64,000 bases of DNA from Naegleria gruberi (taxonomy: Eukaryota): NCBI GenBank assembly GCA_000004985.1, contig GG738883.1; one strand, given 5' to 3'. The notes below the pieces were generated by a model. The model was not told where the DNA came from. It searched no databases and saw nothing but the letters and a program-made list of their open reading frames with translations. The number at the start of each line of letters is the position of its first letter. The stretch's first letter is position 1. The translations under genes and the position numbers were made by a program. Positions 13,517 to 49,436 of this stretch are shown here, piece after piece.

Positions 13517-13572
13517 GGTAGAAGCTTAAGGTGTTTTTATTTTATTTTTAAAAATCTTTGAGCGGGAAACCC

Positions 13573-22248: not shown

Positions 22249-22411
22249 ATAAAATCAATGAAATTACATGTGTTTCATAGTGAAATACTGTTCCTGGAGT
22301 AATGCATGGAACAATTTAATACACTCTAATCCATGTAACCTTCCAACCCTTTACAACTTCCACCTATGTTCCGACTATTCCACTCAGCGAATCAAAAAAC
22401 AATCAAAAAAA

Positions 22412-23398
22412 ATGCAACCAAATCATTATGGGGGTTACCCTGCTGGTGGTCATCAACAGCAACCAATGATGATGTACGGAAATAATACTCAAAACCTTTC
22501 TTTATCATCGGGAGGTGTTACTCTTACGATGAGTGGTAATAATAATACACCAGGGATTGTTGGTGGAGTTCCAATTATGTATCAACAACAAATGATGATG
22601 AGTCCACTTCTTCCGTATAATTTGAAAGGAGAAGTTGTGATCAAGCTTCAAAATCCATTTTCAATTAAATTGTTACCAAAATCTAATACTTTGGTGATGG
22701 TTGATGGAAATATAGGTCGTGTTGTGATGAAGGATGCAACTACTGGTATTATTAAAGAAGATTTCTCAGTTACATCTGGATGTGTTAAAGGAATTGGGGT
22801 TGATCCAACAGATGATAGTTTTTATATAATTTCAGGAAAATTCTTGATAAAATATGATTATCGTGGAGTTTATCTTGGAAAATTTGCAAAGAAAATGAAT
22901 TTGAACAATCCATATGGTTGTACTGTTGATGATACTGGAAATGTCTATATCACAGATTTGAATGATTGTAAAATTGTTGTTCTCTCACGTGAAGAGCAAC
23001 TTGTAAATAAGATTGAATTTAACAAACCATACGATATAGTATTTGATAATGTGAATAAGCTCCTAATTGTGACAGATCAACAAAAGGATTGTGTTAGAAT
23101 TTTAGCAAAGAGTGGTCAAGAAATTAGAAAGATTGGAGACAAGGGTAACGCCAAAGGTCAATTCAGTTCACCAAGTGGTGTTTGTGTGGATGGAAATTCT
23201 CAAATTTTCGTAGCAGATTATGGAAATCATCGTGTACAAATGTTTGACATTAATGGAAGATTTTTAAATTCATTTGGAACAAAGGGCAATACAGATTCAC
23301 ATTTTGATTTACCAAGATCTCTATGTGTGGATATGAATGGAAATTTATATGTAGCAGAGTATGGTAATTCACGTGTACAAGTATTCAAAAAGTTGTAA
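22412..23398 (+). CDS. NHL-repeat (six-bladed beta-propeller) protein of about 328 aa.
   Basis: The start context is AAAAAAAATG. The N-terminus is Gln/Met-rich. Repeated NHL signatures are GQFSSPSGVCVDGNSQIFVADYGNHRVQMFD and LPRSLCVDMNGNLYVAEYGNSRVQVF. Confidence 0.85.
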   Translation: MQPNHYGGYPAGGHQQQPMMMYGNNTQNLSLSSGGVTLTMSGNNNTPGIVGGVPIMYQQQMMMSPLLPYNLKGEVVIKLQNPFSIKLLPKSNTLVMVDGNIGRVVMKDATTGIIKEDFSVTSGCVKGIGVDPTDDSFYIISGKFLIKYDYRGVYLGKFAKKMNLNNPYGCTVDDTGNVYITDLNDCKIVVLSREEQLVNKIEFNKPYDIVFDNVNKLLIVTDQQKDCVRILAKSGQEIRKIGDKGNAKGQFSSPSGVCVDGNSQIFVADYGNHRVQMFDINGRFLNSFGTKGNTDSHFDLPRSLCVDMNGNLYVAEYGNSRVQVFKKL

Positions 23399-23757
23399 TT
23401 AAGATTAAACGATTTTTCTCCATATTGAATATTTCATTACATACAAGAGAGAAGTGTTGTGGAATAGTAGTAGTAATTCATACAACCAACAGAAAAGAGC
23501 GCTTAACTCTGTAACAAACATCAATTCCACAACATATCAGTTCTCAATAATGTGTTACACACATTTTCAATATTGGAAATGATCTGTGTCCAACCAATAA
23601 AATCATATCAACATCTCAAAAATCTTTGAAAATCACCAACACAATGCAAGCTTAATAAATTGTTACACACAACACCAAACTACACTGAACACTCAATGAA
23701 CATTCTCCAATTTCCAAAACATTTAAATAGATCTTTGTAAATTACAATTTTTAAAAA

Positions 23758-23907
23758 ATGTATCAACAACAACAACCTTATTATCATCCATCACAACAAC
23801 AACGACAACAACCGAATTTACCCATCGGATCAGTATCACACCAGCAAATAACTGTACAGAATAATTTTCAACCAAACATGTATCCTCCACATCCTCAACA
23901 ACAATAT

Positions 23908-23938
<31 letters not shown>

Positions 23939-25251
23939 ATAATCCATATGGATCATCATCTGCTCCTCCATTGGTGATGAATCAACAACAGCAACCACCT
24001 ACTTATGGACAGCCTATGAATCAACAACAACAACAACCACCGATGCATCATCAACCGAATTATGGACAAGTTGTGCAACCAACAACATCGGGTGGATCGA
24101 TTACAGTTTCTACTACACAACAACATCCACATTCATTCTATTATCCATATTATTCATATCAGACAACTACTAATACTAACATTCCAATTCATGGACAACC
24201 ACAACAAGGATCAGTCCCACCACCACAACAACAACATGTACAACAACCGTATGGTCAACCACAACCACCAATGAATCCACCAAGTACTAATATTCAACCT
24301 ATGAATCCTTATGGTCAACCAATGATGACTCCACCACCTGTTGTGAATAGTTCACCATTAACTGTTGCCTCAGTCCAAACTAGTATTACATTCAGTAATA
24401 CTACTACTCCAACTCCAACACACAACAGTATTAAATATCAAATTAACCCACCTCTCCACATTGCTCCACATTATTCATTGAGAGGAGAATTGGTATTAAA
24501 AACACAACATCCATTCTGTGTGAGAGCTATGCATCATTCACCAACAATTATTATTGCTGATTCGAATACTAGCAAAATTACCTTGTTGGATAGTTCAAGT
24601 GGGATGGTAAGAGAAACCTTCGATGTTACCACAGGATGTGTTGGAGGTGTTGGAGTTGATCCAATGGATGACAGTTTTTATATTGTTTCTGGACAGAAAA
24701 TTCTAAAATATGGAGCTAATGGAGTTCATTTGGGAACTTTTGGAGAGAATTTCAATTTGAAAAAGCCATACGGTCTAACAGTCGACGATCAAGGGTTTGT
24801 CTATATCTGTGATCTTCATCAACATATTTTTGTAATGACTCGTGAAGGAATCATGGTCAGATACATCTCAGTAGAGAAGCCTTATGATATTTTCTTTGAT
24901 AAATTAAATCAAACTCTTGTAGTGACTGACCAAGATAAGGATTGTGTAAGAGTTTTAACTAAAGAAGGTCTGAAAATTAGAAAAATTGGTGGAAAGGGAA
25001 ATGCTAAAGGTCAATTCATTTCACCAAGTGGAGTTTGTGTAAATGCAGGTAGTAACATTATTGTTGCAGATTATGGAAATCATAGAGTGCAAGTATTTGA
25101 TTGTATGGGAAGATTCCTCTATTCTATGGGAAATAAGGGAAAATTAGAATCAGAATTTGATTTACCAAGATCAGTATGCACTGATATTAATGGAAATTTA
25201 TTTGTTGCTGAATATGGAAACTCTAGAGTTCAAATATTCAGGAAAATGTAA
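23758..25251 (+). CDS. NHL-repeat protein of 497 aa with a long poly-Q, Pro-rich N-terminal low-complexity region. Tandem paralog of 22412..23398.
   Basis: The first ~230 aa are Q/P-rich, including a (CAA)n run at ~23895-23940. The C-terminal ~270 aa are collinear with the upstream NHL gene (GQFISPSGVCVNAGSNIIVADYGNHRVQVFD; LPRSVCTDINGNLFVAEYGNSRVQIF). Confidence 0.85.
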
Positions 25252-25435
25252 ATAAACTTCTCTTTGCCCAGATAGATTGTAATGAACATTTTATAGAATT
25301 TAGATGCCTACGAAAGAGATTGTATCACTTATCGTATGGAAAGTTGTTGTTTGCTATTCTAATAAATTCCTTAAATCAATTTAGTATTAGCCAATAACAC
25401 TAATAAAAATAATAACTTTAAGGATAGGAATGTAA

Positions 25436-25499
25436 AGCAAATTGGAAGCGCGATGGGCTCATAACCCATAGGTCCTAGGATCGAAACCTAGATTTGCTA
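25436..25499 (+). pseudogene. Initiator tRNA-Met (CAU) copy with an 8-nt deletion that removes the 5' D-stem/loop. Probably a pseudogene.
   Basis: Apart from the loss of CGCAGCGG after position 9, it matches the intact copy at 37830..37901. The anticodon arm ATGGG-CTCATAA-CCCAT and the T-arm CTAGG-ATCGAAA-CCTAG are intact. Without the D-arm a cloverleaf cannot form. Confidence 0.7.
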
Positions 25500-25604
25500 A
25501 TCATTTTACAATTTTGGCATTGAAACAATCTATTAATAAATTTAGTGAACTAAGGCAAAAACAAACCAATATTAATTTAAAAGGAATTAATTTAAAAAGG
25601 AAAT

Positions 25605-25676
25605 GGGGACCAGTGGGAATCGAACCCACGGCCTCTCGCACCCAAAGCGAGAATCATACCACTAGACCATGGTCCC
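25605..25676 (-). tRNA. tRNA-Pro (UGG)
   Basis: The reverse complement is GGGACCATGGTCTAGTGGTATGATTCTCGCTTTGGGTGCGAGAGGCCGTGGGTTCGATTCCCACTGGTCCCC. It closely matches eukaryotic tRNA-Pro(TGG). The anticodon loop is TTTGGGT, the T-loop is TTCGATT and the acceptor stem has 7 bp. Confidence 0.9.
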
Positions 25677-26217
25677 TTATATTGAATGAATAATATTAAA
25701 AAAAATTGATGTCTAGAACTTTGGCGCATTTGATTGAATTTACTATTGTAATATTCCATTCTTTGAAAATCTTGTAATGGGCTTCTTTCTTCATCAAAAA
25801 AAAACAAGAGAAGCACATAGATTTCAGATGCTGATTCTTCATCAAACAGATTATCCTCTGATTCAGATTTTGATTCATCATTATCACAAAGGCCTCACCT
25901 TCAAAAATATCTTGAAAAAGTGTCTCACCAGAAAAAGATACCATTACTACATTCCATCAAGCTTAAGGATTATGTTTTCAAATCCAAAAATGATTCTTCT
26001 TCTTTCTCGAAGATTTCCAATTCAACCAAGAGGGTATTTGTAAATTGAAGATCTTAATGGATACATTCATTTTTAGAAAGTATGTCGATTAGTTCTGAAT
26101 AAAATTGAATTGTTATTACAACAGACTTCTATGTAGGGCGCCCATTGTTTGAATTATTATTCACATACTACAAAGAACACAAAGTGTCAAGGTTTTTTAA
26201 CAAAAGTCTGCCATAAT

Positions 26218-27165
26218 TTATTCATCGAATGGATCTTCTACTCTCGCACTAGTGAGCTCTAATAATTGATTCATATCTTCTCTCAATACTCTTGTTCTTT
26301 CCTCATCCAAGTTCAACGTTTCACTTGAGAACAATCCAAAGAATTCATAAACTCGAGGTAATATTTCACCTCTTCTGAATTTCGAACTTCCAAATAATCT
26401 ACATCTTGGATGATTACAAGTTTTCAAATCAATGATATCTTCAAATGACCATTCAGTTGGTTTTCCTTCATAAGTTTTAAATTTTTCCTCAATCATCATA
26501 CATAATTGATGTGTATAATCACAAAATGTATCATAATCTACAATAATTTCATGGAAATAGAGTCTATATCCTGATTTGTATTTGGCTGTAGTTGTAACAG
26601 CATCTTCCCATTTTCCATGACATTGTGTCAATACCATTGAAATATCTTTTTTAGGAAAATATTGTTTTGTAAATTGCATAATACTATCAACCCATCCCAA
26701 TTCCACAATATCACATGGTTTTTCAATTTCCACTTTCAAATCAATATCAACATATAATCTAAATGCATGTTTAGTTCTCATTTCCTCAATGTACATTTTA
26801 GATTTATCAAGTATTGTCTTCTTCCAAGCACTCAAATATTCATTATACATTTGTTGAGATCTGAAAATGATGTGATAATGTCCTCCTCGTTGTGACACAT
26901 GTGTTGGATGTTCTAAACATAAAACTAAATTCTTTTCATTGTGTTTCAAGAGCCATTTCTCTAATTCGTCTTGTGGTTTATAATCCTCGATGCATTTTCT
27001 TGCTTTTACTTGTGAAAAGACGACACCATATTCTCCAATCTTGGAATTACTATTGGATGATGTTGAATTTCCTTTAATTTCGGAATATCTTTTCACATTG
27101 GGTGAAATTTTTGTAATTGATTCCAGTGATGATCCGGACTGCTGACTATGTTTCTTTGGTGCCAT
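26218..27165 (-). CDS. Hypothetical protein of 315 aa with an HUH-like motif and a DxD motif. Possibly a Rep/primase-like nucleotidyl-transfer enzyme; speculative.
   Basis: The ORF is uninterrupted. Motifs present are GGHYHIIF (His-hydrophobic-His-hydrophobic x3), FRLYVDIDLKVE (hhhDhD), TQCHG, IIVDYD and paired Cys (CNHPRC; FCDYTHQLC). The motif order resembles archaeo-eukaryotic primase or rolling-circle Rep catalytic cores, but I cannot assign a family from sequence alone. Confidence 0.45.
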   Translation of the reverse strand: MAPKKHSQQSGSSLESITKISPNVKRYSEIKGNSTSSNSNSKIGEYGVVFSQVKARKCIEDYKPQDELEKWLLKHNEKNLVLCLEHPTHVSQRGGHYHIIFRSQQMYNEYLSAWKKTILDKSKMYIEEMRTKHAFRLYVDIDLKVEIEKPCDIVELGWVDSIMQFTKQYFPKKDISMVLTQCHGKWEDAVTTTAKYKSGYRLYFHEIIVDYDTFCDYTHQLCMMIEEKFKTYEGKPTEWSFEDIIDLKTCNHPRCRLFGSSKFRRGEILPRVYEFFGLFSSETLNLDEERTRVLREDMNQLLELTSARVEDPFDE

Positions 27166-27341
27166 TATAAAGTTATTATTAAATATAATTGTTAATATCT
27201 TGAATTGATTATTTTTTTTTAATTGATTTGAAATTCATCAATTTACATCAAATTTGAACTTTATTTATAGTTTTAAAGTTCAATCTCAAAATTTAAAGGT
27301 TGTTGTTGGTTTGTACAATTTTTACAAAGTTGTAAAAAGTT

Positions 27342-29327
27342 TTAAAGGGTTATTGCCGATGGGATAAAACGTCTAAATGGTTCATAGAAACAGCTCTGAT
27401 ATGTTTCGCTACCCTTAGTGAACTCGTCTTGTCCATAAATTGGTTTTGAATTGCTAGTGATTGGTTGTGGAGATGGGTGGAAATGATTATTTTCTTGTTT
27501 CTTTCTCAAAATTTGGACAATCATTATTTCGTAAACTACTGTAAAATCAGATAGTTTCTTAACTCGCTTTGCTAGAATATCTTTGTTTGGATTTTGTCTG
27601 CTTTTAGGTGATACAAACAGGTGTCTTCGTTCTCCCAGAGACATTTGGCAAAGATGTTTCTCGATATCTGGATTTACTTGACCTTTACCAATAGTAAATT
27701 GAAGTAAATCTGGAACTACTTCAATATCTTTGGCAACAGAATCAAATATAATGCTAACTGTTGATGTAGAGCTGGATGTACCACCTCCTCTTCCTGAAGA
27801 GTCAGTAGACCAGTTGTCTTCAGCATCTTCTGGATCGTGATTTGTTATTGGTGGCAGAGCAGATGAATTAGAGGAATAGAGAGATAGGTCATCTTCACTT
27901 CTTTGCGAAAGTGTCAGTCTAGAATCAGTGCAAGTGGTTGCAAAACTCAGTTCTGAAAATGAACTTGCTACAGATGCTCTACTATCATAAACTTCGCTAT
28001 TATTTGTGCTGGTGGAAGTTATTTCGTCTTCCGAATCCACATCAGATTTTCTTTGTTTTAACAAGAACTTGTTATTGGCATGTGACAACCAATTTTCAAA
28101 ATCAGTATAACTATTTGATGGTGGTTTGACAATGTACAAATCCTTGTCATCATCGAACCCTTCTTCTCCTTCTTCATCATCGCTTGTATCATATGAAACA
28201 CTACAGTGTTTGTTTGTTTCAATAGATTTATAAGTCTTATCCACAATGGTATCATTCAATAGCTTTGCAACATAATGTACAGAAATAGAATCCCCAATTT
28301 GAGGTCTATTTGTTTCGTCTCCCTTTTGCAATATTTTCGAATAAGTTCCATTATTTAGAGCTCTAACAGCACAATTACATTCAAATTTGTGTTTTGGCCA
28401 ATCCGATACTTGATGTTCTTTACAACAATATCTAACTTCTCTACATAAGCTGCAAGTTTTAAGTTGTAATCTTCCTGAATCCAATGATTTGTTAGATAAT
28501 TTACAATATTTACAAAACAAAAATCTTTCCATTTCCTTGCCACTTGTTTTTCTAGTGAGTTTCTTTTTCGAGTTTGAAACTGATGATAATTTAGTGGCAT
28601 ATAACATGTCAATCTTGGAATCTTTAGTTGAAATTCCAAAACCTGAAACTAATTTTCTGGCATGAGTAATGGTGTCAACCGTAGTCGAAGATGATGATTT
28701 TCTCTTTCCATTTGTTTCGGTTTGTTGATTATTAGATTTCATATTTGCTAAACTATAAGGATCAACTTGTTTCGTATTATTATTATTATTATTTTGACAG
28801 GTATTAAATTCTTCCTGTTCTTCGGTAGTAGTTGTACTAGTAATAGTCTTTGCTTCAAATTCACTTCTCTCCTGCTGAAGATGATGATGATGCTGACTTC
28901 CTTCCTTCGTCGTCAGATGAGCGGAATTAGAGAAGAAACTGCTCTGCTCTGCTTTTTGCTGAGTTATTGTTGTTGTCGAAGAAAGGTTTGCGTGTCTGAG
29001 AAAGGCTTTGGAGCGAAATTTTTTAGTGCTGTTTGATTCGTAATGTTGGTGTTGGTGTTGGTGGTGTGCGACATTAACGCCATCATCATCATTGTTATTA
29101 TCAGAAATTTTCATTGGTTTGAGTGGATCATTGTTTTGATAGTTGTCTTGATTTGGATTGATAATTGGTTCTGTCAGGTATTCTTCGTCTTCTTGTTGGT
29201 TAGTGGTGGTGTTTTTGTGATTATTGGATGTTAGAGGAGTTTGTTCTTCTTGAGGTGAAGATGAAGGAAATTGTTGTTGTCCTGAGAGAAGTAACGGATT
29301 GATTTGAATCATTGGTGAAGTGGCCAT
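27342..29327 (-). CDS. MYND-type zinc-finger protein of 661 aa with a C-terminal FKBP-type peptidyl-prolyl isomerase-like domain that is split by a low-complexity insertion.
   Basis: The MYND finger is CKYCK...CSLCREVRYCCKEHQVSDWPKHKFEC. The FKBP-like halves are IGDSISVHYVAKLLNDTIVD and, after an acidic insert, FTIGKGQVNPDIEKHLCQMSLGERRHLFVSPK (compare the FKBP motifs GKGQVIKAWD and GE...L.I.P). His/Gln and Asn/Thr runs are also present. Confidence 0.65.
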   Translation of the reverse strand: MATSPMIQINPLLLSGQQQFPSSSPQEEQTPLTSNNHKNTTTNQQEDEEYLTEPIINPNQDNYQNNDPLKPMKISDNNNDDDGVNVAHHQHQHQHYESNSTKKFRSKAFLRHANLSSTTTITQQKAEQSSFFSNSAHLTTKEGSQHHHHLQQERSEFEAKTITSTTTTEEQEEFNTCQNNNNNNTKQVDPYSLANMKSNNQQTETNGKRKSSSSTTVDTITHARKLVSGFGISTKDSKIDMLYATKLSSVSNSKKKLTRKTSGKEMERFLFCKYCKLSNKSLDSGRLQLKTCSLCREVRYCCKEHQVSDWPKHKFECNCAVRALNNGTYSKILQKGDETNRPQIGDSISVHYVAKLLNDTIVDKTYKSIETNKHCSVSYDTSDDEEGEEGFDDDKDLYIVKPPSNSYTDFENWLSHANNKFLLKQRKSDVDSEDEITSTSTNNSEVYDSRASVASSFSELSFATTCTDSRLTLSQRSEDDLSLYSSNSSALPPITNHDPEDAEDNWSTDSSGRGGGTSSSTSTVSIIFDSVAKDIEVVPDLLQFTIGKGQVNPDIEKHLCQMSLGERRHLFVSPKSRQNPNKDILAKRVKKLSDFTVVYEIMIVQILRKKQENNHFHPSPQPITSNSKPIYGQDEFTKGSETYQSCFYEPFRRFIPSAITL

Positions 29328-29805
29328 TATGTTGATTCAAGGAAGGTAGATAATTATAATAGAGGATTTTTCTTTTGCATGGCCCCTTGCATGCTGTTGG
29401 CATTGATTTCGTCAACATTAGTTGATGCGATTCAAGGTTAATAAGAGCGAAAAAGCATATAATAAGGTGTGAACGAAATTTAACTTCTTTAAAAAGCTTT
29501 AAAGAAAAGAATCAGCAGGCTTGTGATGGTTGTTATTTCTATTTTCTCAGAATTTCACAACCTAATGGACCATTTTACAATATTTAATAAACATGTATCT
29601 GTTCATTCGAAAGAATATTATTCTTTACAACAAGTTTAACCAATGCATATCACTATTTTCCTTGAAAACAAAGTTTCCACCAATATCAATATTAATTGAC
29701 TTTTGATGAATAATTCAATTCTTAATATTTCTTTAAATTTTAAATTAATAAAAAGTTTTTAACTTTCCTTGATTTAATAAATAATTATAGTTTATTACTG
29801 GACAA

Positions 29806-32800
29806 TTACCAAAATGCACACCAACCGATGTACATTTGACATAAATTAGAGTTAGATGTTGCTTGCTCAATTAAGAGTTCAACTTGTTCAGAACAATTCA
29901 AAGTGTGAGGCTCATCTTCAATTTGGTCATCCTCATCTTCATCAACAAAATCTCTGCCCAAAAGCTTGCTTTCAATTCTTGAACTGACAGATAAAGCTCT
30001 TTGGTTGAGAGCTTCTGGTTGTTTGAGTGATTCTTCTTCAGTTTCATCACTTTGCAATGATCTTCGGAGATTCTTCTCACGAAGTGATCTAGAAGGATAA
30101 TGTACACTATCGTGGTCGGTGTAAGATGAAACAGTTTGAGGAGAACCTTCATTATTTGACCTGAGTCCCATATCAGAGTCTTGTTGCATATTATTTGCAA
30201 TATTTTGCATGGAAGATTCTTGAGTATTGTCTTCATCATTTTGAGTTTCAAGCAAACGCCAATTGATCAAAGGATCGTGGACGAAAGCTTCTAACATGGC
30301 CATAACAGAATCCTTATTTTCTCTTAACACTCTCATGACACTTTCACAAGTAGATTTGAATGTTCCTTCAATACCACAAACCTCCATAGCATTAATGAGC
30401 ATTCTTGTAAGTCTGAAAGGAACCTTTTCAGGGAACTTATCTCTGTGCATAGCAACTTCGAAACAGTCACCAAAGTCAATGTGAACAATTTTACCAGTTG
30501 ACTTTTCCAACATCAAGTTACTAGGGTGTCTGTCACCAAGACCAAGAATATAACCAACAATAGACATAACAGCCAATGAACGGGTATAGTTAGTTCTTCT
30601 TTCAAGCCAGACTTCAGAGTTTCTACTCTTGAGCCACAATACTTTGTACAAATCTTGTCCTGTGGTATTTTCAAGAGCGTATTCAAACACTTCAATCTTT
30701 TGCATTAAAGTTAAATTTTCATAATCAAAAGCGACTTGTTGCATGAGTCTATGTTCAATGTTCAAGAGTACATTTCTGCTATCCCTGAATTCCTTGATAA
30801 GAGCGTGAAGAGTATCACAATTGTCAACCCAACCAATCAAACCAGCATTAGAGCTGAGTGGAATAACAGCATATCTCTTAATACTAAGATCACGAGTAGA
30901 TGTTTCAGGATCATTCTTCAGCAAGGTGTTAACCAAACCGAAGAGTTGCATTACTCTTTCGTCTTGTCTTAAATCTTCGTGACCCTTCAACAAGAATTGA
31001 TACTCGTTACCGTCACTACCGAAAATCTTGAGTTTTCTTGGTCTTTGTTTGGAAGATATAACTCTCAATTGACGAGCAAAGTTAGCAATTCTAATAACTG
31101 GTTGTCCACTCTTGTAAGTACCAGGAATGGCAAGTTCTAAATCATTAGCTTCCAATAATTTTGGAGAAACAATTTGCAATTCAAGCTTCATCATGTGTGG
31201 AAGTTGCTTATCAATTCTTCTAAATACATGATAGTACAGGTCCCAAGCTTGAGAAAGTTCCTTTTCTTTCTTTGTTCTTTGATACTTTTTACAGAATTCC
31301 CAAGCATCCTGGAGGTCTCTACCGAAACCTTGTGCAAAAGCGATTTCGCTCAAAGTCTCTGGATTTTGAATCATTTCATGCAATGGCTTCAAGGTATTTA
31401 ACATGCCAGGGACGTTGTGTTCGCCAAAGTACAATCTAGATGCTTCTTGAAGTCCTTCATGCCACAATTCGTTCCACAAAATTGCAACTCTAATCAACTC
31501 ATGACTGACCATAAGAGCTTGTTCGGCAAGAACTGGGTTATTTTGTCTCATGTAATTAAGCAAGGATTCAGCAGCCTTCTTTCTTGACAAAGATTGAGAG
31601 TATGAACAAACTGTTAATGGATAAACCAAAGCTTGAGGATGTACTTTGCCAACCTTGGACAAAAGCTTGTGGATCAATTTACGAACAGGACCCACATGGG
31701 AGTTAACACGAGCAATAATTTGCGGAATAACTTCGAGCCATGTATCAATTGAAACAGTATTAAAACCATCAACCAGAGTCTTTTCAATTTCTTTCATAGC
31801 ACCATGTTTGAACCACAATGTAAGTAAACGTAAAATATCTTGCAAGCTTGAGTTTCTATCTGGACTGAGATTAATAGAATTGAAAAAGCCAGTAAGAGCA
31901 GAGATGAGATAAATAGTCATAGCTTCCATATTTCTTGAAGAAGGTTGAGACTTCTTTTCAAAGTGAGAAACAACTTCAGAGTTGAGAAGAGCCCATTCGT
32001 GCCAAGCTTTGTACCATTCCTTATCGAAATCTGTGGCAGCCTTGAAATGAGAAAGAATTTGTGGTAATTTGCTCTCTTCTAATCCACCATGTTGTCTGTA
32101 AATAACCTTTTGCCATTGTCCCAATGTAAGGAATGCTCTAGCTTTAAGTTGGTTATCACATTGAATGTTGTATACAAATTGGTTCATTAATTCATAAGCT
32201 CTCATTTGCTTTCCTTCAACCCACATGTGTTTGAAATATTCATATGAAATCTTTGGATGTACTTCTGGAGAAATGAGAAGCTTTTCTGGTTCTTCACTCA
32301 ATGAAATTCCATCAACTAATTTTTGAAGAATCTTTTCACTCATTCTAATCTTGTTAGACTTTCTGCAAATAGAAGCAAACTTCAACCATGTCGAAAGATC
32401 TTGTCTTTCAGGAATTACTAATTTTCTAACTGAGAGAATGTTTTGCCAATGTTCAACATTTCTCTTACAACCATGAAGTCTGTCAATCCATATTTGGTGA
32501 GTAAGAGCTTTGGTTTCTTCATCTTCAGCCTTTTGATATCTAATAATTTCTTCCATTTCAGACAATTGTTGGACGGTAACAATAATATCATAGGCTCTAT
32601 TGTAACTTTCACCAACAAGTGCTGCAAGTTCGGTATCCAAAACTTTACGAGTCTTATCAATCAAAACCTCTGCATTATGATGATCCTTTTGGTGAATAGC
32701 CAAAATTGCTCTAAAGAAAGCACCTTCACTTGTATCTTCGCTGAGAATGTTAACATAATTTCTCATGCTTTCCCATTCTCCCAAGTTCCAAGCAGCATGA

Positions 32801-35800
32801 GCTGCCATTGGTGCCATTTCTTCTTTGATAGTATCACTGAAAGTGTTCCATGATTCTTGGCAAAGCTTGAAAAGCTTTTCCCATTCGCCAATAGCCTTCA
32901 AACATCTCATCTTACCTAGAGTTAGGCTTTGGTCATATGGATTTTGCTTTTGTTTGATACTGTAGGCGTCATAAGCTTCCTTCCATCTTTGAAGTTTTTC
33001 ATACCACGATTCTTTGAGTTCAATACTGTGATTCTTTTGAGCATATTTAAGAATACCCATAGCGGCTTCATGTTGTTGGAGTTGGTTATTGATACTAATC
33101 AAATCTTCAATGAGAGCACTTGGATTTTGTTGGAATTCAATTTCCTTATAGTGCAATGCCTTGGCAAAACATTGACATTTTTCAGCCAAAGCACCAAGAG
33201 CACTTATAGCAATAGGAAGTGGATTTTCATCATGTTCCATAAATTCTGCCAAGTTCAAAAGTGTTTGCAAAACTTCAGGAGGTAAATCAGGGGAAGAGAA
33301 TGCCATCTCCAAAGCACGCACAACTTCATTTTGTGCCTTATCATCAAGTTCAGACCAACAGCTGACAAAACCAGCATTAAATAATTCTCTAGTAAGTGGA
33401 TGATAGACTTGAGCTAATGCTGAACATGAACGTAATGCAGGAGAAGGAGATTCTTTCAAAAGTTCAACTGAAAAACCTCTATTCCATTCAATCCAATCGT
33501 CCTTGGTTGCTCTCTGGGATGCTTCCCATGCCTTTCTCAAACTATTTTGGTTGATAACCATTTTCTTGACCTCTGTCATTGAGTCTTCTCCATTAGAATT
33601 ACTAACTTCATCTTCATCATCAGGCATATTAGGAAGTGGAAGTCCCTTCAACAAGTGGAATATGAATTCATTATACTTTTGATGTGTGATATTATATTGA
33701 GTTAACACTTTAGTAACCATTGGAATGAAAATAGAAAAGTCGCTTCCCAATTGGTGAATAATATTGCAGAGAGTATCCATAGCTTCTTGTCTAATTTCAT
33801 TGTTTGGTATTTTGAGAACTCTAGAAAGTGGATGAATAATTCTTGAAGAATATTCTGAGAAGTTCAAGATTCTACTCAATTTACCAATACATCTAATAGC
33901 CTCTCTCTTAAGAGAAATATTAGCCAATGGAGCTTCGAACAATTTAACCACTGTTGGAATAACGAGATATAAATATTCTTCTAAATGTCTACCAAAAACA
34001 ATAAGTGCATGAAGTGCTTTCTTTGCTGGTTTAAATTGTTGAGGAGTTTGAAGAACGCTCAATATTTGAGGGATAACATCAGGAAGGTTTGGTTTGAATT
34101 GCTCATTAAGTGCTGTACAAATTTCCTCTTCTAGTGAAATAATTTGTTCCTTGAAATCAGTATCAGAAGAACTCATATCCCAGAACTCGTGGATAAGTAG
34201 GAAAATCTCGTCTAAATAGTTTCTGATATGCTGCTTAACAATAGAAACTAGCAAACTTAATTGTTGGAAAACAGTATTACGAATATTAGGTTCACAATTT
34301 CTAATCAAGTTCAAGAAAGGAGGCATAACTTGAGGTAAGAAAGGAACACATTTCATATTTAAACTGGTAAAGATAAACATGACTGCTTGGATGGCGTTAA
34401 GATGGTGAATGGCAAGAGAAGGATCAGTCAAAATTCTAATAAGAGCATTAAATGCAACTGTAGGATAGTATTCTTCAGAAGAAGGGCTTAAACCTGGAAT
34501 AATGTCGCTGCTGTCGTTAGTTTCCTTTGCTGATTCCAATTGGAGCTTGTGTTGATATGGATCAATAGCACCAATAATACCAAGAACTTTGATTATTTCT
34601 CTTCTTGTGGTCCATTCTTCTTCCGACTTTAAAATAGCTAATAAAAGTGTCAGTAAATTAGGATACTTGATATAGGGAGTGATTACATAACCAGTGCTGG
34701 CAACTATTTGTCCTAAAGTCTTTACAGCCATAGCTCTCTTTGCTGAAGAACTTTGATCTTGTAAAGTTTCAATTACAGAAGGCAAAAGATCATCAATAAA
34801 ATCAGCAATATCCATTCCACCAACTTCTGCAAGTTTACCTGTTGTATCCAATACACAAGAGGCTACATTTGGATTATTGTCCTTGATTCTTTCCATTAAA
34901 ACTTTCAATACGCTCGAAACATATGGTTTTATCAATCTAGGAGCTGCAACTATTAAATGACCAAGCATTCTAGCGCTTTCTTCCTTGCTTCTAGAGTCTT
35001 GACTATATTCAAGTTCAGTCAAAAGTTGGAGAAGAGCCTTTCTTAAAGATGGAAGAACAAATGCAGGATTTCTAATGCTCAATCTTCCAATAACAGAAAT
35101 AGCAACCTCTCTAATTTCGAAAAATTCATCATTAAGAGCAATAAATAAGGATCTCAAATTATCTGATAATGCCAAATAATGATCAAACTTTGGATCTAAA
35201 GAAGATAAAACAGCAAATCTAATTGTGTAGTCTGTATCTGTAATACCAACAATTAAAAGTTTTGCTAAAACATCACCAACAACAGAACCAAAATGACCTT
35301 TAACTGGTGGTTTTCCTTGACTGACAAGAAGTCTGCAACATGTTTTAGCAGCCTCTTTTCTAACAGAAGGTATATCATCATCCAAATATTTTACAACACA
35401 ATCATGTACAAAATCTATCAAGTTGTGTCCCTTGACATTGAAACTTCCCAAAGTTTTAAGAGCAAAAACTATTGTTGGTGTACTATAAAGTGTAGATTCA
35501 ATATGTGGAGCAAATTGGGTTGGAGGTGTGACTGGATTAAGGGTATTAAATGGTTGTCTAGCCAAAATTTGAGAAATTGTGTCCAAAACTCTCTTTTGAA
35601 TAGGTTGTAAGAGTGCAGGGATTTCTTTGGAGATAATTGTAAGGGATTGGATAAGTGTTGTGGTTAAGCCACCAGCAAACATGGAAGGAAGTAAATGTAA
35701 AATACGGAGAGAAACTGTATCACCAACAGCTTTTGAAATATCACTAATACATGTTAAAGATTCCTCGCAAAAGTTCTTCTTTTTGATTTTAAGACCCCAT

Positions 35801-36948
35801 TCTGTTATTATGTTGAAAATGTCATCCACATATTTCTTGATAGGTTGTCCAACACGTGTTGTTAATTCACCAAGAGCAAGAAATGATGAAGGTCTTTCGA
35901 ACCCGTTTTTGATAGCTTCTAATATCAAATTAATTGATCTATGTAAGTATTTCTCATTAAATCTTTCTCCGTAAAACTTTGCCAATACGGGTATAAGCTC
36001 AATGACAGTTCTTCTGACCATTTTATCTTTATGTGAGTGGAATCCAAGAACTGTATTACAGATGGCATCAAATTCATCTTTCAAGACATTTCCTGCAAAT
36101 CCTAATAATTCACCAATGGCAAGTAAAGCTCCGTGAACAACATCAGATTTAGCATTCTTAAAGTTGATATTTGTCTGATTATAAATATCTTGATACCAAA
36201 TATTACGGAAATTTGTTGGACGTTCTGATATTAAACCAAGAACAGCATGAAGTGCTTGCACTGAACCAATTCTAACACTTACGTTTGGATCAGTGAGTCC
36301 ATTCCAAATCACACTCAAAAAGCTTTGTACATGTCCATAAAATAGTGTAGGAGCATTTTCAGCAAGTTCTTTTAGAATAAACACTGCTGCATATCGTTTT
36401 CCGTCATCATTTTTCTTGTTGTTATTGTTATCACTTTCCAACCATTCCAAAGCTCTCTTAATTTCAAATTCAACCCATTCTGCTGTTAAAGTTTTAGATT
36501 CACTTGCTCTGGCTAATTTACCAAAAGTTTTGGCAACCATTAACACTATCTGAGACTCGTTAGATGGATTTGCTACTATATTCCTAAGACATTGATAAAA
36601 TCGAGTTTTGTTAATTTTCCTTTGATCATCGTATCTAACATCAATTAAAACGTCGATTAATACGATGGCAGCAATACGGTCATTTGTTTCTCTAGAGCTT
36701 GAAAACTCTACAATTTTACTATGGTAAATATCATCTATAAACTTGATAAAGTTGTCAGCTGAATATTCACGATATATTTTCTCAACCTATTATCATCAAG
36801 ATATTGTGTTTAATGTTTATAATATTATTTAGTTTGATGAACAACAATAAAAACATACCTGTGTTTTGAACAATTGAACCCCAATGTTCCTTTGTTCCTC
36901 GTTCTTGCTTGTTATATTTGAAAATATTTCTACCAATTCACTACTCAT
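29806..36948 (-). CDS. TOR: TOR (target of rapamycin) phosphatidylinositol-kinase-related kinase of about 2356 aa. Exons are 36859..36948 and 29806..36786, with a 72-nt intron 36787..36858.
   Basis: HEAT repeats, FAT, FRB ([21 protein letters not shown]), the PIKK catalytic core (GLGDRHPSNLML...HIDFGDCFE) and a C-terminal FATC ending ...CQMYIGWCAFW are all present. Track ORF 29806..36546 starts at an internal GTG and lacks the first ~110 residues. The added 30-codon exon 1 is MSSELVEIFSNITSKNEEQRNIGVQLFKTQ, with donor CAG|GTATGT and acceptor ATAATAG|. Together with the in-frame upstream portion of exon 2 it aligns to the mTOR N-terminus (FASGLKSRNEETR...ANERKGGILAIASLIGV). Confidence 0.95.
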
Positions 36949-37652
36949 TCTTTAATAATTTAGTGGTGATCATCAACTAAGAGTGATTTTTCTATACAAT
37001 ATTATTTACTATTCGTCGTGATGTGTGTTATTGTTGTATTTACTATAAAGGATTATTAGTAATAGCAAAATAATTTTACAGCAACAATAAATTACTACCC
37101 AAGAGAGGATTTCGAAGATGATGATGCTGGGTTGTTGCTGTAATTGTAGAAATTTTGCTTTTTTTTAAAAATAAATAAAAATCCATTACGTTAATTGAGA
37201 GGCGATTGGTGATGAATTATTTACTTCATCCTTCCTATCTGGAAGTTTTGTAAGAAATATTAAACGTTGTTTATGTTTGAATTGTCGAACCAATTTATTA
37301 GGAACAATTTCCTGTTAATGGCATCGTGAACCTGGAATGTAATGGTGCAACAATAAAACCAAAGGAATAAATAACTAAAATGAAAGAACTCAAAAATTTG
37401 AATAACATCTCCTCTCATTACCGCCTTAGAAGTAAATTATTCTTCATAATAAAACTCCTCTGAATCTGAACCTTTAATCTGGGATAACATAATCTATGAT
37501 AAGTAATATTGAAATGATTGTAGAATTATCAATATATTGACACTACTCAAAAGTAGAATATGGTATGATTCTTTTCAATTAATCCTTGCAAACAGATATT
37601 AAACAACTATGCAGTAGACATCTATTTTAAATATTATTCATTTTCAATATAA

Positions 37653-37724
37653 GGGACCATGGTCTAGTGGTATGATTCTCGCTTTGGGTGCGAGAGGCCG
37701 TGGGTTCGATTCCCACTGGTCCCC
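37653..37724 (+). tRNA. tRNA-Pro (UGG)
   Basis: The sequence is GGGACCATGGTCTAGTGGTATGATTCTCGCTTTGGGTGCGAGAGGCCGTGGGTTCGATTCCCACTGGTCCCC. It is the same gene as the minus-strand copy at 25605..25676. Confidence 0.9.
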
Positions 37725-37829
37725 ATTTCCTTTTTAAATTAATCCCATTTAAATTAGTATTGGTTTGTTTTTGCCTTAGTGCACTAAATTTATTAATAGA
37801 CTGTTTCAATTCCAAAATTGTAAAATGAT

Positions 37830-37901
37830 TAGCAAATCTAGGTTTCGATCCTAGGACCTATGGGTTATGAGCCCATCGCGCTTCCGCTGCGCCAATTTGC
37901 T
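37830..37901 (-). tRNA. Initiator tRNA-Met (CAU), intact.
   Basis: The reverse complement is AGCAAATTGGCGCAGCGGAAGCGCGATGGGCTCATAACCCATAGGTCCTAGGATCGAAACCTAGATTTGCTA. Eukaryotic initiator hallmarks are present: A1:U72, three consecutive G:C pairs in the anticodon stem, and A54 and A60 in the T-loop (ATCGAAA). It is near-identical to human tRNAi-Met across the D-arm, anticodon loop and T-loop. Confidence 0.9.
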
Positions 37902-38138
37902 TTACATTACTACAAAGTTATTATTTTTATTAATGTTATTGGCCAAGTGAACTTATAAACACAAATAATTGTTATTTAAGGAATTTATTAGAATAGCAAA
38001 CAACAAGTTTCAATACGGTAAGTGATACAATCTCTTTCGTAGGGATCCAAATTGAGTGTGCTAACTCAGATGGACCACCTTTGAGAACTTATAATAATTT
38101 ATGAGCTTGGCCTCTTGCATTCCATGATTATGTTTCAG

Positions 38139-38685
38139 CAGGTGTCATTGATTATGTTTTCAATGATGTTTTTGACAGTTTGACAGATATTGTTGATCCA
38201 GCTAATTGTGTTAGATTGCAAACTTTTCCAAGGTATCAACTACTTTCTATGGGTGATGAATTCTTTGCTCCGTAAGTTTTCTTACAAAATTTCATTATTT
38301 AATCTCACCTTCCTTAATGTATAGGGATCTTAATGCACTTTCCTATTCAAAGATTAAGGATGAAAAGTATGTTCGTTTCCTTCCAAACACTGCTCACTAC
38401 ATGTTCAACACTGATGTTCTTACTGTTCTTGGAACATTCTACATTTCCAGATTGAATAATGCAATTCTTCCAAAGTACAATTTCTCTCATGAATATGTGA
38501 ATGCAGGTGTTGTCATTTATGTTTCAGTTAGTAATGGAATTAAGCCATCCAGTGTTAAAGTTTGGAACGCCACCAATCCATTTGCACACGATTTCAGAAC
38601 TTCCACCATTGGATCCAATGTTTGGCAAAATCAAACCTTAATTGAAACTCAACCACTCGTGACTGGAAACGAATCAGCTGAATAA
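38139..38685 (+). CDS. 3' portion (two exons, 38139..38271 and 38325..38685) of a gene encoding a possible PhoPQ-activated-pathogenicity-related (PqaA-like) secreted protein. The 5' exons were not identified.
   Basis: The 53-nt intron 38272..38324 has a GTAAGT donor and TATAG acceptor and joins ...MGDEFFAP to DLNALSYSKIKDEKYVRFLPNTAHYMFNTD... in frame. The acceptor TGTTTCAG at 38131-38138 precedes the first exon, which implies an upstream exon. The ORF is closed upstream at the inverted-repeat boundary. The family assignment is from memory of the PqaA-like C-terminal region and is uncertain. Confidence 0.4.
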
Positions 38686-39438: not shown

Positions 39439-39927
39439 TTATTCTACGCTAATAGGACCAATATTAAGTAATGTTAATTGTTTCATTTCACTTATGTATT
39501 TGGATCCTTCTGCACCAATTTGATTTCTACCAATATTAAGTAATGTTAATTGTTTCATTTCACTTATGAATTTGGCTCCTTCATCACCAATTTGATTTCT
39601 ACCAATATAAAGTGATGTTAATTGTTTCATTTCACTTATGAATTTGGCTCCTTCATCACCAATTTGATTGCCATCAATATTAAGTGATGTTAATTGTTTC
39701 ATTTCACTTATGAATTTAACTGTATCTGGAGAGTTAAGCAACTTATTAGAAAACTTAATGTTTACAATACTATTCATGAATTGACTTTTCATTAACAATT
39801 CAATTCTATTTTCTGTAAATTGTTTTTTAAATTGAATAACAAGTTTTGAACGTTCCTTGATCACATTAAACCATTGTTTTGAAATTAAAGAACAATTATT
39901 CAAAATAAACCACGAATCATCAATCAT
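39439..39927 (-). CDS. RNI-type leucine-rich-repeat protein of at least 162 aa, built from tandem 24-aa LRR units. The N-terminus may be incomplete.
   Basis: Four near-identical units ISEMKQLTSL(N/Y)IG(R/G)NQIGDEGAKF are encoded by a 72-bp DNA tandem repeat. Confidence 0.6.
   Translation of the reverse strand: MIDDSWFILNNCSLISKQWFNVIKERSKLVIQFKKQFTENRIELLMKSQFMNSIVNIKFSNKLLNSPDTVKFISEMKQLTSLNIDGNQIGDEGAKFISEMKQLTSLYIGRNQIGDEGAKFISEMKQLTLLNIGRNQIGAEGSKYISEMKQLTLLNIGPISVE
39459..39720. repeat. 72-bp tandem repeat (about 3.6 units) encoding the LRR units of gene 39439..39927.
   Basis: The unit CAATATTAAGTAATGTTAATTGTTTCATTTCACTTATG(T/A)ATTTGG(A/C)TCCTTC(T/A)(G/T)CACCAATTTGATTTCTAC repeats at ~90% identity between units. 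Confidence 0.85.
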
Positions 39928-40932: not shown

Positions 40933-41051
40933 GGCTACGGCCATATCACGATTCATGCACCTCATCCCGTCCGATTTGAGAAGTTAAGCATCGTCGAGCC
41001 ACATCAGTACTGAGGTTGGAGACAACTTGGGAACCTGTGGTGCTGTAGTCT
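40933..41051 (+). rRNA. 5S ribosomal RNA
   Basis: GGCTACGGCCATATCACGATTCATGCACCTCATCCCGTCCGATTTGAGAAGTTAAGCATCGTCGAGCC...TGGGAACCTGTGGTGCTGTAGTC matches the eukaryotic 5S consensus. Shared elements are CCCGTCCGAT, GAAGTTAAGC, AGTACT, GGGAGAC/GGAGACA, TGGGAA and GGTGCTGTAG. The 5' and 3' ends pair to form helix I. A TTTT Pol III terminator follows immediately. Confidence 0.9.
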
Positions 41052-43756: not shown

Positions 43757-44997
43757 TTAATTCTTAGCATTCAACATTTTGATTGCTTCATTGAAATATT
43801 CTGGAGTTTCAGATGTAAATTCCAAATATTTTCCAGTTTTTGGATGTTTAAAACCCAAATATGAAGCATGCAAGAATTGTCCCTTCTCAGTTGCAAACTT
43901 TTCAAATCCTTCCTCTTGTTTGGATTGCTTTTTTTTCTTAGTCTTTTTACTAGCTTTGAATCGAGGGTTATAGAGGGCATCTCCTACAAGTGGTCTATTA
44001 AGGTGGGCCATTGATACTCTAATTTGGTGAGTTCCTTTGAAATAATTGTTAATTAAACATTTCTCAAATACTTACTTCCAGTTAAAAGTTTACATCTCAC
44101 AAGTGTTAAAACTTTACAACCAGTTAAATTATTGACTGGGAAGGTTTTTTGCTCCTTATATTCAGTAATACTGAGTTTGGCACCAGTTTCTAGTGCATTG
44201 TTAGTTACCTCTCTCTTGGATGGCATGGAGTGATGTCTCTTTATGTAAATTTCAATTCTTCCTTCTGATTGGTTCAATTCATTTTCTACAAGGGCTTGGT
44301 AGTATCTGGTTATTTTATCTTCATTATTTTCATCTCCTACATTCTTATTTTCGAATAATTTCTTCAATGCCAAATGAGTTTCATCATCTTTGGCAACAAC
44401 CATAATTCCACTAGTGTCTCTATCCAATCTGTGAACAATACCAGGTCTGTAATGTTCTTCACAGCTTCCACAAGTAGATAATTTTCCATTTGTGTGGAAT
44501 AAGAGAGCATTCACCAAAGTTCCAGTAGTATTTCTTGGTTTTGGTTTTAAAGAAGGATGCACTGTCATGAATTTAGGCTTATCCAAAACAATGAGAAAAT
44601 CATCTTCAAACAGAATGTTGAGAGGAATGTTTTCTGGCATGATTGCATCACTTGTAGTTGATGAGGAAGCAGCATTTTCCTCTGTAGTATTACTGGCTAC
44701 TGATAATTGTTCAGAACTTGATGATTCCGAAGAGGCTGTTGTTGTCTTTTCCTTTCTTTCCTTCACAATAACCACATCACCATGTCGTAATTTGAGAGCA
44801 GGCTTATTAGTCTCCTCATCATTATATAAAAATCTGTACTTTGAATTTTCTCCATTTGAATATTGAATTGTCTTTCCGAGTGATGATTTTGAAACTTGTC
44901 TCTCCTTGAAGAAACAATCAAATAGAAAGACATCGAGTCTTTCCTTGTGGTAATCAACAGAAACAGTCAAACTTGCAATCTGCTCAAAAGAAGACAT
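43757..44997 (-). CDS. RluA-family pseudouridine synthase of about 399 aa. Exons are 44076..44997 and 43757..44034, with a 41-nt intron 44035..44075.
   Basis: The catalytic motif is HRLDRDTSGIMVVAK. Splicing (donor GGAA|GTAAGT, acceptor TTCAAAG|) yields [26 protein letters not shown]. This reconstitutes the conserved GRTHQIRVH...HPLVGD motif, which is otherwise split between two track ORFs. There is an S4-like N-terminal region. Confidence 0.9.
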
Positions 44998-49365: not shown

Positions 49366-49436
49366 TCGGGTGTGGTATAGTGGTAGCATTCCAGACTGTC
49401 ACTCTGGCGACCCGGGTTCAATTCCCGGCACTCGAG
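49366..49436 (+). tRNA. tRNA-Asp (GUC)
   Basis: The sequence is TCGGGTGTGGTATAGTGGTAGCATTCCAGACTGTCACTCTGGCGACCCGGGTTCAATTCCCGGCACTCGAG. The anticodon loop is CTGTCAC, the T-loop is TTCAATT and the acceptor has 7 bp with one G-U pair. It resembles eukaryotic tRNA-Asp. Confidence 0.85.

What the first reader, a model, noticed from the sequence alone, without database searches (positions are those of the whole stretch)
25299..38044. Inverted ~430-bp tRNAi-Met/tRNA-Pro repeats bracket an 11.9-kb, all-minus-strand block containing TOR
The two repeat copies (25299-25715 and 37605-38044) are reverse complements at roughly 90% identity. Each has initiator tRNA-Met and tRNA-Pro(UGG) pointing away from each other. 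All three genes in between (26218-27165, the MYND-FKBP gene and TOR) are on the minus strand, while the nearest genes outside on both sides are on the plus strand. This is the pattern expected if homologous recombination between the inverted copies has inverted the segment, or can still do so. The outer edge of copy B abuts a gene (38139-38685) whose 5' part is missing, which suggests the duplication disrupted it. One tRNAi-Met copy is damaged (see next finding).
Basis: seen in the sequence. Interest (0 to 1): 0.7.

Follow-up and report, generated by a model that had tools for sequence, protein, structure and literature searches.

The report
Inverted tRNA-pair duplication flanking Naegleria TOR
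In the amoeba Naegleria gruberi, a ~430-bp piece carrying two tRNA genes has been copied in reverse orientation on either side of the TOR kinase gene; the repeat is real, but relatives give no sign that the 12-kb block between the copies was ever flipped, so this is an ordinary small segmental duplication.

Summary
The window is Naegleria gruberi NEG-M: its TOR ORF is 100% identical to EFC41913.1.

**Observation: real.** Copy A (25298-25715) and copy B (37611-38053) are reverse complements. They are 92.5% identical over aligned bases and 86% if the four indels are counted. Three details of the finding need correcting:
- In each copy, tRNAi-Met and tRNA-Pro(UGG) converge; they do not diverge.
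- Copy B ends at 38053, not 38044.
- The abutting "gene" is a PhoPQ-related pseudogene. It lacks about 59% of its domain and carries an in-frame TGA.

**Inversion reading: not supported.**
- N. fowleri, N. lovaniensis, an unnamed Naegleria-like species and Willaertia magna have no tRNA gene within the sequence held around TOR (10 kb each side, less for the unnamed species).
- N. fowleri and N. lovaniensis share the present gene order NHL–MYND/FKBP–TOR.
- Willaertia shares TOR's present orientation relative to a pseudouridine-synthase gene that lies outside copy B.
- Three-gene strand runs occur elsewhere in the window without repeats.

**Gene disruption: supported.** Homology to PhoPQ-related proteins begins within about 35 nt of the repeat edge, and the 5' part is absent from all 64 kb.

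**Best reading:** a gruberi-lineage inverted segmental duplication of a Pol III gene pair, with both copies kept under selection until a recent 8-nt deletion disabled the tRNAi-Met in copy A. Interest is low.

The parts
25298..25715 (.). Repeat copy A (418 nt), reverse complement of copy B
25436..25499 (+). tRNAi-Met pseudogene: identical to the copy B gene except for an 8-nt deletion (GGCGCAGC) that removes the A box and the 5' side of the D arm
   Evidence: ARAGORN misses it. Rfam scores it 43.9 bits against 64 for copy B. The alignment shows the deletion. The cloverleaf is lost in the minimum-free-energy fold.
25605..25676 (-). tRNA-Pro(UGG), intact and identical to the copy B gene
26218..27165 (-). 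Prim-pol (PPL4 / AEP) gene, a conserved heterolobosean family
   Evidence: Pfam PF18188, E 5.5e-71. Homologs occur in N. lovaniensis and Willaertia.
27342..29327 (-). MYND-finger / FKBP-domain gene
   Evidence: Pfam. Orthologous to the TOR neighbour in N. fowleri and N. lovaniensis.
29806..37002 (-). TOR kinase gene (main ORF 29806-36546; 5' exon similarity reaches about 37002)
   Evidence: Pfam. 100% identical to N. gruberi EFC41913.1. 5' exon matches.
37611..38053 (.). Repeat copy B (443 nt)
37653..37724 (+). tRNA-Pro(UGG), intact
37830..37901 (-). tRNAi-Met, intact, with initiator hallmarks (A1:U72, GGG/CCC anticodon stem, A54, A60)
   Evidence: The hallmarks are read from the sequence.
38036..38685 (+). 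PhoPQ-related pseudogene remnant: only Pfam positions 216-367 of 367, in-frame TGA at 38102-38104, intron about 38273-38324. Annotated in N. gruberi as a 122-aa predicted protein.
43766..44997 (-). Pseudouridine synthase (RluA-type) gene outside copy B, used as the synteny anchor with Willaertia
   Evidence: 51-61% amino-acid identity to the gene upstream of Willaertia TOR. Pfam PF00849.
22268..25251 (+). Two tandem NHL-repeat genes outside copy A, both homologous to the single NHL gene near TOR in N. fowleri and N. lovaniensis

Best explanation
This is a segmental duplication specific to the N. gruberi lineage. A unit of about 430 bp, holding a convergent pair of RNA polymerase III genes (initiator tRNA-Met and tRNA-Pro(UGG)), was copied in inverted orientation 11.9 kb from the original. 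The two copies now bracket the prim-pol, MYND/FKBP and TOR genes.

The rearrangement that set the copy B outer junction also removed the first ~59% of a PhoPQ-related gene (inferred). What remains of that gene is a pseudogene.

Both copies stayed functional for most of the time since duplication. Their tRNA parts carry no substitutions, while the surrounding DNA has drifted by 6-12%. A recent 8-nt deletion of the A box and D arm then disabled the tRNAi-Met of copy A (the timing is inferred).

The block between the copies has not undergone a net inversion. Its gene order and TOR's orientation toward the outside flank match those in other genera and species. The copies could serve as substrates for rare homologous exchange, but nothing here shows that this happens.
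For: - **Repeat anatomy:** limits, identity and indels.
- **Selection on the tRNA parts:** 0 of 136 aligned tRNA positions differ, against 31 of 278 non-tRNA positions (Fisher p = 3.6e-6). At the spacer's divergence, zero changes in the 64 surviving nt of the copy A tRNAi-Met has probability about 0.02. This points to a recent deletion or to gene conversion.
- **Lineage-specific:** no tRNA gene was found in the sequence held around TOR in N. lovaniensis, N. fowleri or either Willaertia locus (10 kb each side), nor on the roughly 10-kb contigs of the unnamed Naegleria-like species (for the shared layout of its two contigs L007 and L098).
- **Gene order:** N. fowleri and N. lovaniensis share the unsigned order NHL–MYND/FKBP–TOR.
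- **Orientation:** Willaertia shares the upstream, same-strand pseudouridine synthase–TOR arrangement, and in the window that gene lies outside copy B.
- **Pseudogene:** PhoPQ-related similarity starts at the repeat edge and the 5' part is absent from the window.
- **Not an artefact:** no assembly gaps, and the copies are diverged.
Against: - Inverted duplications of this size and identity are what staggered-break inversions leave behind. Drosophila values are median 321 bp and 88 ± 5% identity (PMC1885836).
- Yeast inversions of 1-30 kb are flanked by tRNA genes (PMC3302566).
- The outgroups are very distant. Synteny is almost gone, and the signed arrangement already differs from N. fowleri by at least two reversals. 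An inversion that happened to restore an older orientation cannot be excluded.
- Which copy is the parent is unresolved.
- Other copies of the unit elsewhere in the N. gruberi genome could not be searched for.
Confidence: 0.55

Rival explanations
1. The block was inverted in the N. gruberi lineage, and the repeat is either the by-product of that inversion or its cause. In the by-product version, staggered breaks at one breakpoint were filled in and rejoined, which duplicated the tRNA unit in inverted orientation at both ends; the other, simple break fell inside the PhoPQ-related gene. In the cause version, homologous exchange between pre-existing inverted tRNA units flipped the segment.
For: - Repeat size (418-443 bp) and identity (92.5%) fall within the range reported for inversion-linked duplications, and in 12 of 18 Drosophila cases only one breakpoint region is duplicated.
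- A gene is broken exactly at one repeat edge.
- Yeast inversions are flanked by tRNA genes.
- Identical runs of 101 and 74 nt are shared by the copies.
Against: - The pre-inversion order would be NHL–TOR–MYND/FKBP, with TOR on the opposite strand to the pseudouridine-synthase gene. N. fowleri and N. lovaniensis match the present order, and Willaertia matches the present orientation.
- If copy A were the original and the simple break fell in the PhoPQ-related gene, the gene's 5' part should sit just inside copy A (25716-26217). No trace of it exists there or anywhere in the window.
- The strand pattern is not unusual for this genome.
Confidence: 0.22
2. The two units are simply two members of a larger dispersed family of tRNAi-Met/tRNA-Pro units in the N. 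gruberi genome. Their inverted placement around TOR is coincidental, and the PhoPQ-related gene was truncated by an unrelated event.
For: - Pol III genes are clustered in this region: a 5S rRNA gene at 40933-41051 and tRNA-Asp at 49366.
- Rearrangement is very frequent around TOR in this genus.
Against: - The similarity extends about 140 nt beyond the tRNA genes on the outer side and covers the whole spacer, as expected for a single local copying event.
- The pseudogene breakpoint coincides with the repeat edge to within about 35 nt.
- The rest of the genome could not be searched.
Confidence: 0.15
3. The repeat is an assembly artefact, caused by a duplicated or misoriented contig end.
For: None found. 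The only consideration is that the assembly is an older Sanger whole-genome shotgun (own knowledge).
Against: - The window contains no N.
- The copies differ by 31 substitutions and by four indels (8, 2 and 3 nt, plus a 19-22-nt gapped, poorly alignable stretch in the outer flank).
- Each copy has unique flanks on both sides.
Confidence: 0.02

Closest known systems
Inversion-associated inverted duplications (staggered-break model; Ranz et al. 2007, PMC1885836)
   Same: Inverted duplication of a few hundred bp of non-repetitive sequence bracketing a multi-gene segment. Only one breakpoint region is duplicated, one copy is degenerating, and identity is about 90%.
   Different: Outgroup comparison here does not show the bracketed segment to be inverted. 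The expected displaced half of the broken gene is missing.
Small inversions flanked by tRNA genes in Saccharomyces sensu stricto (summarised in PMC3302566; attribution to Kellis et al. 2003 is from my own knowledge)
   Same: tRNA genes in opposite orientation at both ends of a 1-30 kb segment.
   Different: In yeast the inversion is documented between species. Here only the flanking tRNA units are seen. The homology here also extends beyond the tRNA genes, so these are copies of one locus and not merely two members of a tRNA family.
Ordinary tRNA gene duplication followed by pseudogenisation
   Same: Redundant copies, with one losing its internal promoter and cloverleaf through a small deletion.
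   Different: The copy is inverted and 12 kb away rather than tandem, and its edge coincides with a truncated protein-coding gene.
tDNA chromatin barriers / insulators (TFIIIC-bound tRNA genes in yeast and mammals; own knowledge)
   Same: Intact tRNA genes with B-box sequences lie on both sides of a gene block.
   Different: There is no evidence of barrier function. Relatives manage the same genes without flanking tRNA genes.

Membership tests
Eukaryotic initiator tRNA-Met | CAU anticodon, A1:U72, three G:C pairs closing the anticodon stem, A54 and A60 in the T loop, and a cloverleaf fold | tested here: met
   Copy B (37830-37901): AGCAAAT...ATTTGCTA acceptor, GGG/CCC stem, T loop ATCGAAA. ARAGORN and Rfam (64 bits) detect it and the fold is a cloverleaf.
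Eukaryotic initiator tRNA-Met | Intact D arm and A-box internal promoter (tested on copy A) | tested here: not met
   An 8-nt deletion, GGCGCAGC. ARAGORN finds nothing, Rfam gives 43.9 bits, and there is no cloverleaf.
Repeat-mediated (NAHR) inversion | Inverted homologous sequences at both ends of the segment | tested here: met
Repeat-mediated (NAHR) inversion | The segment is inverted relative to the ancestral or outgroup arrangement | tested here: not met
   The present order matches N. fowleri and N. lovaniensis, and the present TOR orientation relative to the pseudouridine-synthase gene matches Willaertia. The outgroups are distant, so this is parsimony, not proof.
Repeat-mediated (NAHR) inversion | Both orientations are present in reads or populations | not testable with these tools
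   N. gruberi proteins are not on record in the contig index. The metagenome scans found nothing Naegleria-like.
Staggered-break inversion with inverted duplication | The duplicated sequence is single-copy or absent at the locus in relatives | tested here: met
   No tRNA gene in the sequence held around TOR in four other species.
Staggered-break inversion with inverted duplication | The two halves of a gene cut by the simple break lie at opposite ends of the inverted segment | tested here: not met
   The profile search of all six frames finds PhoPQ-related similarity only at 38036-38652.
PhoPQ_related (PF10142) protein | A full-length domain with an open reading frame | tested here: not met
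   Only profile positions 216-367 of 367 are present, with an in-frame TGA at 38102-38104.
tDNA insulator | TFIIIC-dependent barrier activity | not testable with these tools
   Only B-box-like sequences can be read (GGTTCGATTCC in tRNA-Pro).

The most novel reading that the evidence does not exclude
The inverted tRNA units are a live recombination substrate or a functional boundary. In the first version, the TOR block flips between two orientations in N. gruberi populations without harming any gene. In the second, the paired Pol III genes act as chromatin barriers that isolate the TOR–FKBP block.
Probability: 0.05. Interest if true: 0.55.

Novelty: new member of a known kind. Interest (0 to 1): 0.2.

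Why it matters
This adds little beyond annotation of the N. gruberi genome:
- It flags one tRNAi-Met copy as a pseudogene.
- It identifies a 122-aa "predicted protein" as the remnant of a PhoPQ-related gene.
- It documents a young inverted duplication in a genus whose gene order around TOR is extremely fluid.

If a closer relative or long reads later showed the block in both orientations, this would be a clean, small example of tRNA-flanked inversion outside fungi.

Tried and rejected
- **Looking for other assemblies of the same locus.** Exact-protein look-ups of the N. gruberi TOR and prim-pol proteins are not on record, so no second assembly or read-derived contig of this locus could be examined.
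- **Metagenome scans.** The tRNAi-Met 3' half including the acceptor stem gave 0 hits. The T-arm alone gave 89 hits, and every match listed covered only the tRNA itself. Those examined were long tandem tRNA arrays from aquatic metagenomes, with nothing Naegleria-like and no match to the spacer.
- **Context of the closest full-length PhoPQ-related protein** (P0128, a 4.5-kb metagenome contig): no shared neighbours.
- **N. lovaniensis prim-pol ortholog locus.** I checked whether a tRNA pair sits next to it, which would have marked copy A as the parent. There are no tRNA genes and no shared neighbours.
- **Second Willaertia anchor.** The 376-aa gene between the pseudouridine synthase and TOR in Willaertia is not similar to the window's 441-aa gene.
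- **Viral or mobile-element origin of the prim-pol gene:** rejected. It is a conserved heterolobosean family.
- **Literature.** A search for Naegleria tRNA-associated inversions returned only mitochondrial and unrelated papers.
Full report
**Source of the window.** The sequence is eukaryotic, about 33% G+C and intron-poor. The 2,246-codon ORF at 29806-36546(-) is a TOR kinase by Pfam: FAT, FRB, PI3/4-kinase and FATC domains. It is 100% identical over 2,244 residues to Naegleria gruberi EFC41913.1. The window is therefore from the N. gruberi NEG-M assembly, on a scaffold of 371,401 bp. It contains no N.

**The observation.**
- An inverted repeat is present, seen as two ungapped arms: 25444-25686 / 37643-37885 (243 nt, 98%) and 25297-25376 / 37974-38053 (80 nt, 94%).
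- A global alignment puts the limits at A = 25298-25715 and B = 37611-38053. It has 383 matches, 31 mismatches and 33 gap columns. The gaps are an 8-nt deletion in the copy A tRNAi-Met, small indels of 2 and 3 nt in the inner flank, and a 19-22-nt gapped, poorly alignable stretch in the outer flank. Identity is 92.5% ungapped and 85.7% gapped.
- The only other inverted repeat of at least 40 nt in the 64 kb is a 41-nt, 71% AT-rich match.
- ARAGORN and Rfam find tRNA-Pro(UGG) in both copies, identical in sequence, and tRNA-Met(CAT) in copy B. The copy A Met is seen only by Rfam, at a reduced score.
- The Met gene has the initiator hallmarks, read directly from the sequence: A1:U72, GGG/CCC in the anticodon stem, and A54/A60 in the T loop.
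- Copy A lacks GGCGCAGC. This removes the A box and the 5' side of the D arm and abolishes the cloverleaf.

**Corrections to the finding.**
- The two tRNA genes of each copy converge, 3' ends facing across a 105-nt spacer with T-runs after each gene. They do not diverge.
- Copy B ends at 38053, not 38044.

**What lies between and outside the copies.**
- Between the copies, all on the minus strand: a prim-pol (PPL4/AEP) gene, a MYND-finger/FKBP-domain gene, and TOR.
- Left of copy A: two tandem NHL-repeat genes on the plus strand.
- Right of copy B: the remnant of a PhoPQ-related gene.
  - A profile built from 56 full-length homologs matches only 38036-38272 and 38323-38652 in any frame of the window.
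  - Pfam aligns the conceptual spliced product to positions 216-367 of 367.
  - The frame contains a TGA at 38102-38104, at a position where the closest full-length homolog has Cys.
  - About 59% of the domain is missing. The similarity begins 18 nt inside to 34 nt outside the repeat edge.
  - The N. gruberi annotation calls the last exon a 122-aa predicted protein.
The coincidence of the two breakpoints supports a single rearrangement.

**Selection on the copies.** None of the 136 aligned tRNA positions differs, against 31 of 278 non-tRNA positions (p = 3.6e-6). At the spacer's 5.7% divergence, the chance of no change in the 64 surviving nt of the copy A tRNAi-Met is about 0.02. Either the 8-nt deletion is recent or the copies exchange sequence. 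I favour a recent deletion, but this is inference.

**Was the block inverted?**

*Strand pattern.* Among 25 ORFs of at least 200 codons there are 14 strand runs. They include another minus-strand trio (10837-15666) flanked by plus-strand ORFs with no inverted repeat.

*Relatives.*
- N. lovaniensis (L001) and N. fowleri (L003, L006) have NHL(-), a roughly 160-aa gene(-), MYND/FKBP(-), TOR(+), Ank(-), SCI1(+).
- An unnamed Naegleria-like species (L007, L098) has PLDc(-), a 97-aa gene(-), TOR(+), SCI1(+).
- Willaertia magna (L004) has pseudouridine synthase(+), a 376-aa gene(-), TOR(+), RhoGAP(+).
- No tRNA gene was found in any of the loci scanned: L001-L007, which hold 10 kb on each side of TOR in the named species and about 10 kb in all for the unnamed species. 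L098 was not scanned separately but matches L007 almost throughout.

*What the comparison shows.*
- The window shares the unsigned order NHL–MYND/FKBP–TOR with N. fowleri and N. lovaniensis.
- Its pseudouridine-synthase gene (43766-44997, minus strand, outside copy B) is 51-61% identical in protein to the Willaertia gene. In both genomes it lies upstream of TOR on TOR's strand.
- Flipping the block between A and B would give NHL–TOR–MYND/FKBP and put TOR on the opposite strand to the synthase gene. Neither state is seen in any species.
- The signed differences from N. fowleri (NHL and TOR each reversed relative to MYND/FKBP) need at least two reversals, and none of them uses A and B as its two breakpoints.
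- By parsimony the present orientation is ancestral.

*Caveat.* These outgroups are distant and almost all other synteny is lost, so an inversion that restored an older orientation cannot be excluded.

**Mechanism.**
- Best reading, about 0.55: a local inverted segmental duplication of the Pol III gene pair in the gruberi lineage. The rearrangement that set the copy B outer junction also deleted the 5' part of the PhoPQ-related gene. Both copies were then maintained, and the tRNAi-Met in copy A was lost recently.
- Main rival, about 0.22: an inversion coupled to duplication by staggered breaks, or exchange between pre-existing repeats. Size and identity fit the Drosophila data: median 321 bp, 88 ± 5% identity, and often only one breakpoint region duplicated (PMC1885836). 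Yeast inversions are flanked by tRNA genes (PMC3302566). If copy A were the original and the simple break fell in the gene, the displaced 5' half should lie just inside copy A, and it does not. The outgroup arrangements also disagree with any net inversion.
- The copies share identical runs of 101 and 74 nt, so rare homologous exchange remains physically possible. It would harm no gene. It cannot be tested here.

**Limits.**
- No second N. gruberi-lineage sequence could be reached.
- The parent copy is unresolved.
- The rest of the genome could not be searched for further copies of the unit.

**Verdict.** The repeat is real and its description is mostly accurate. It is an ordinary kind of event. 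The inversion reading is not supported, and the gene-disruption reading is supported.

Noticed in passing
window 27342-29327 and 29806-37002; L001 7566-17230; L003 7356-17231: A MYND/FKBP-domain gene is TOR's immediate neighbour in N. gruberi, N. fowleri and N. lovaniensis, but at opposite ends of TOR. In gruberi it is tandem at the 3' end; in the other two it is divergent at the 5' end. The linkage of an FKBP-domain gene to TOR survives although the geometry has changed.
   Followed up: partly
L001 and L002 (N. lovaniensis PYSW02000024.1, 357625-364854 and 438380-445507): N. lovaniensis has two TOR paralogs (92% and 83% identical to the window's TOR) about 74 kb apart in inverted orientation on one contig. 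Willaertia magna also has two. No second N. gruberi TOR appeared among the 120 best hits.
   Followed up: no
window 40933-41051 (+), 49366-49436 (+): A 5S rRNA gene (Rfam, 100 bits) and a tRNA-Asp(GUC) gene lie within 12 kb of copy B. This gives a loose cluster of Pol III genes to the right of TOR.
   Followed up: no
window 26218-27165 (-): The gene next to copy A encodes an archaeo-eukaryotic primase-type prim-pol (Pfam PPL4, E 5.5e-71, plus the C962R-like AEP domain). It is a conserved heterolobosean family with several paralogs, some fused to PF04457 (labelled MJ1316 in one hit's source name). The N. lovaniensis ortholog is on the same contig as TOR but about 340 kb away.
   Followed up: partly
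window 22268-23398 and 23758-25251 (+): Two tandem NHL-repeat genes with Q/P-rich N-termini both match the single NHL gene near TOR in N. fowleri and N. lovaniensis. This is a second local duplication in the same neighbourhood.
   Followed up: partly
window 39457-39717: Three copies of a 72-nt-period direct repeat (91-100% identical) inside the LRR gene 39439-39927. They encode repeated 'QIGDEGAKFISEMKQLTSL' leucine-rich units.
   Followed up: no
L009, L016, L024, L094 and other metagenome loci: Aquatic metagenome contigs that share the tRNAi-Met T-arm carry long arrays of dozens of closely spaced tRNA genes, up to about 100 on a 14.8-kb contig and mostly on one strand. They are unrelated to Naegleria.
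   Followed up: no
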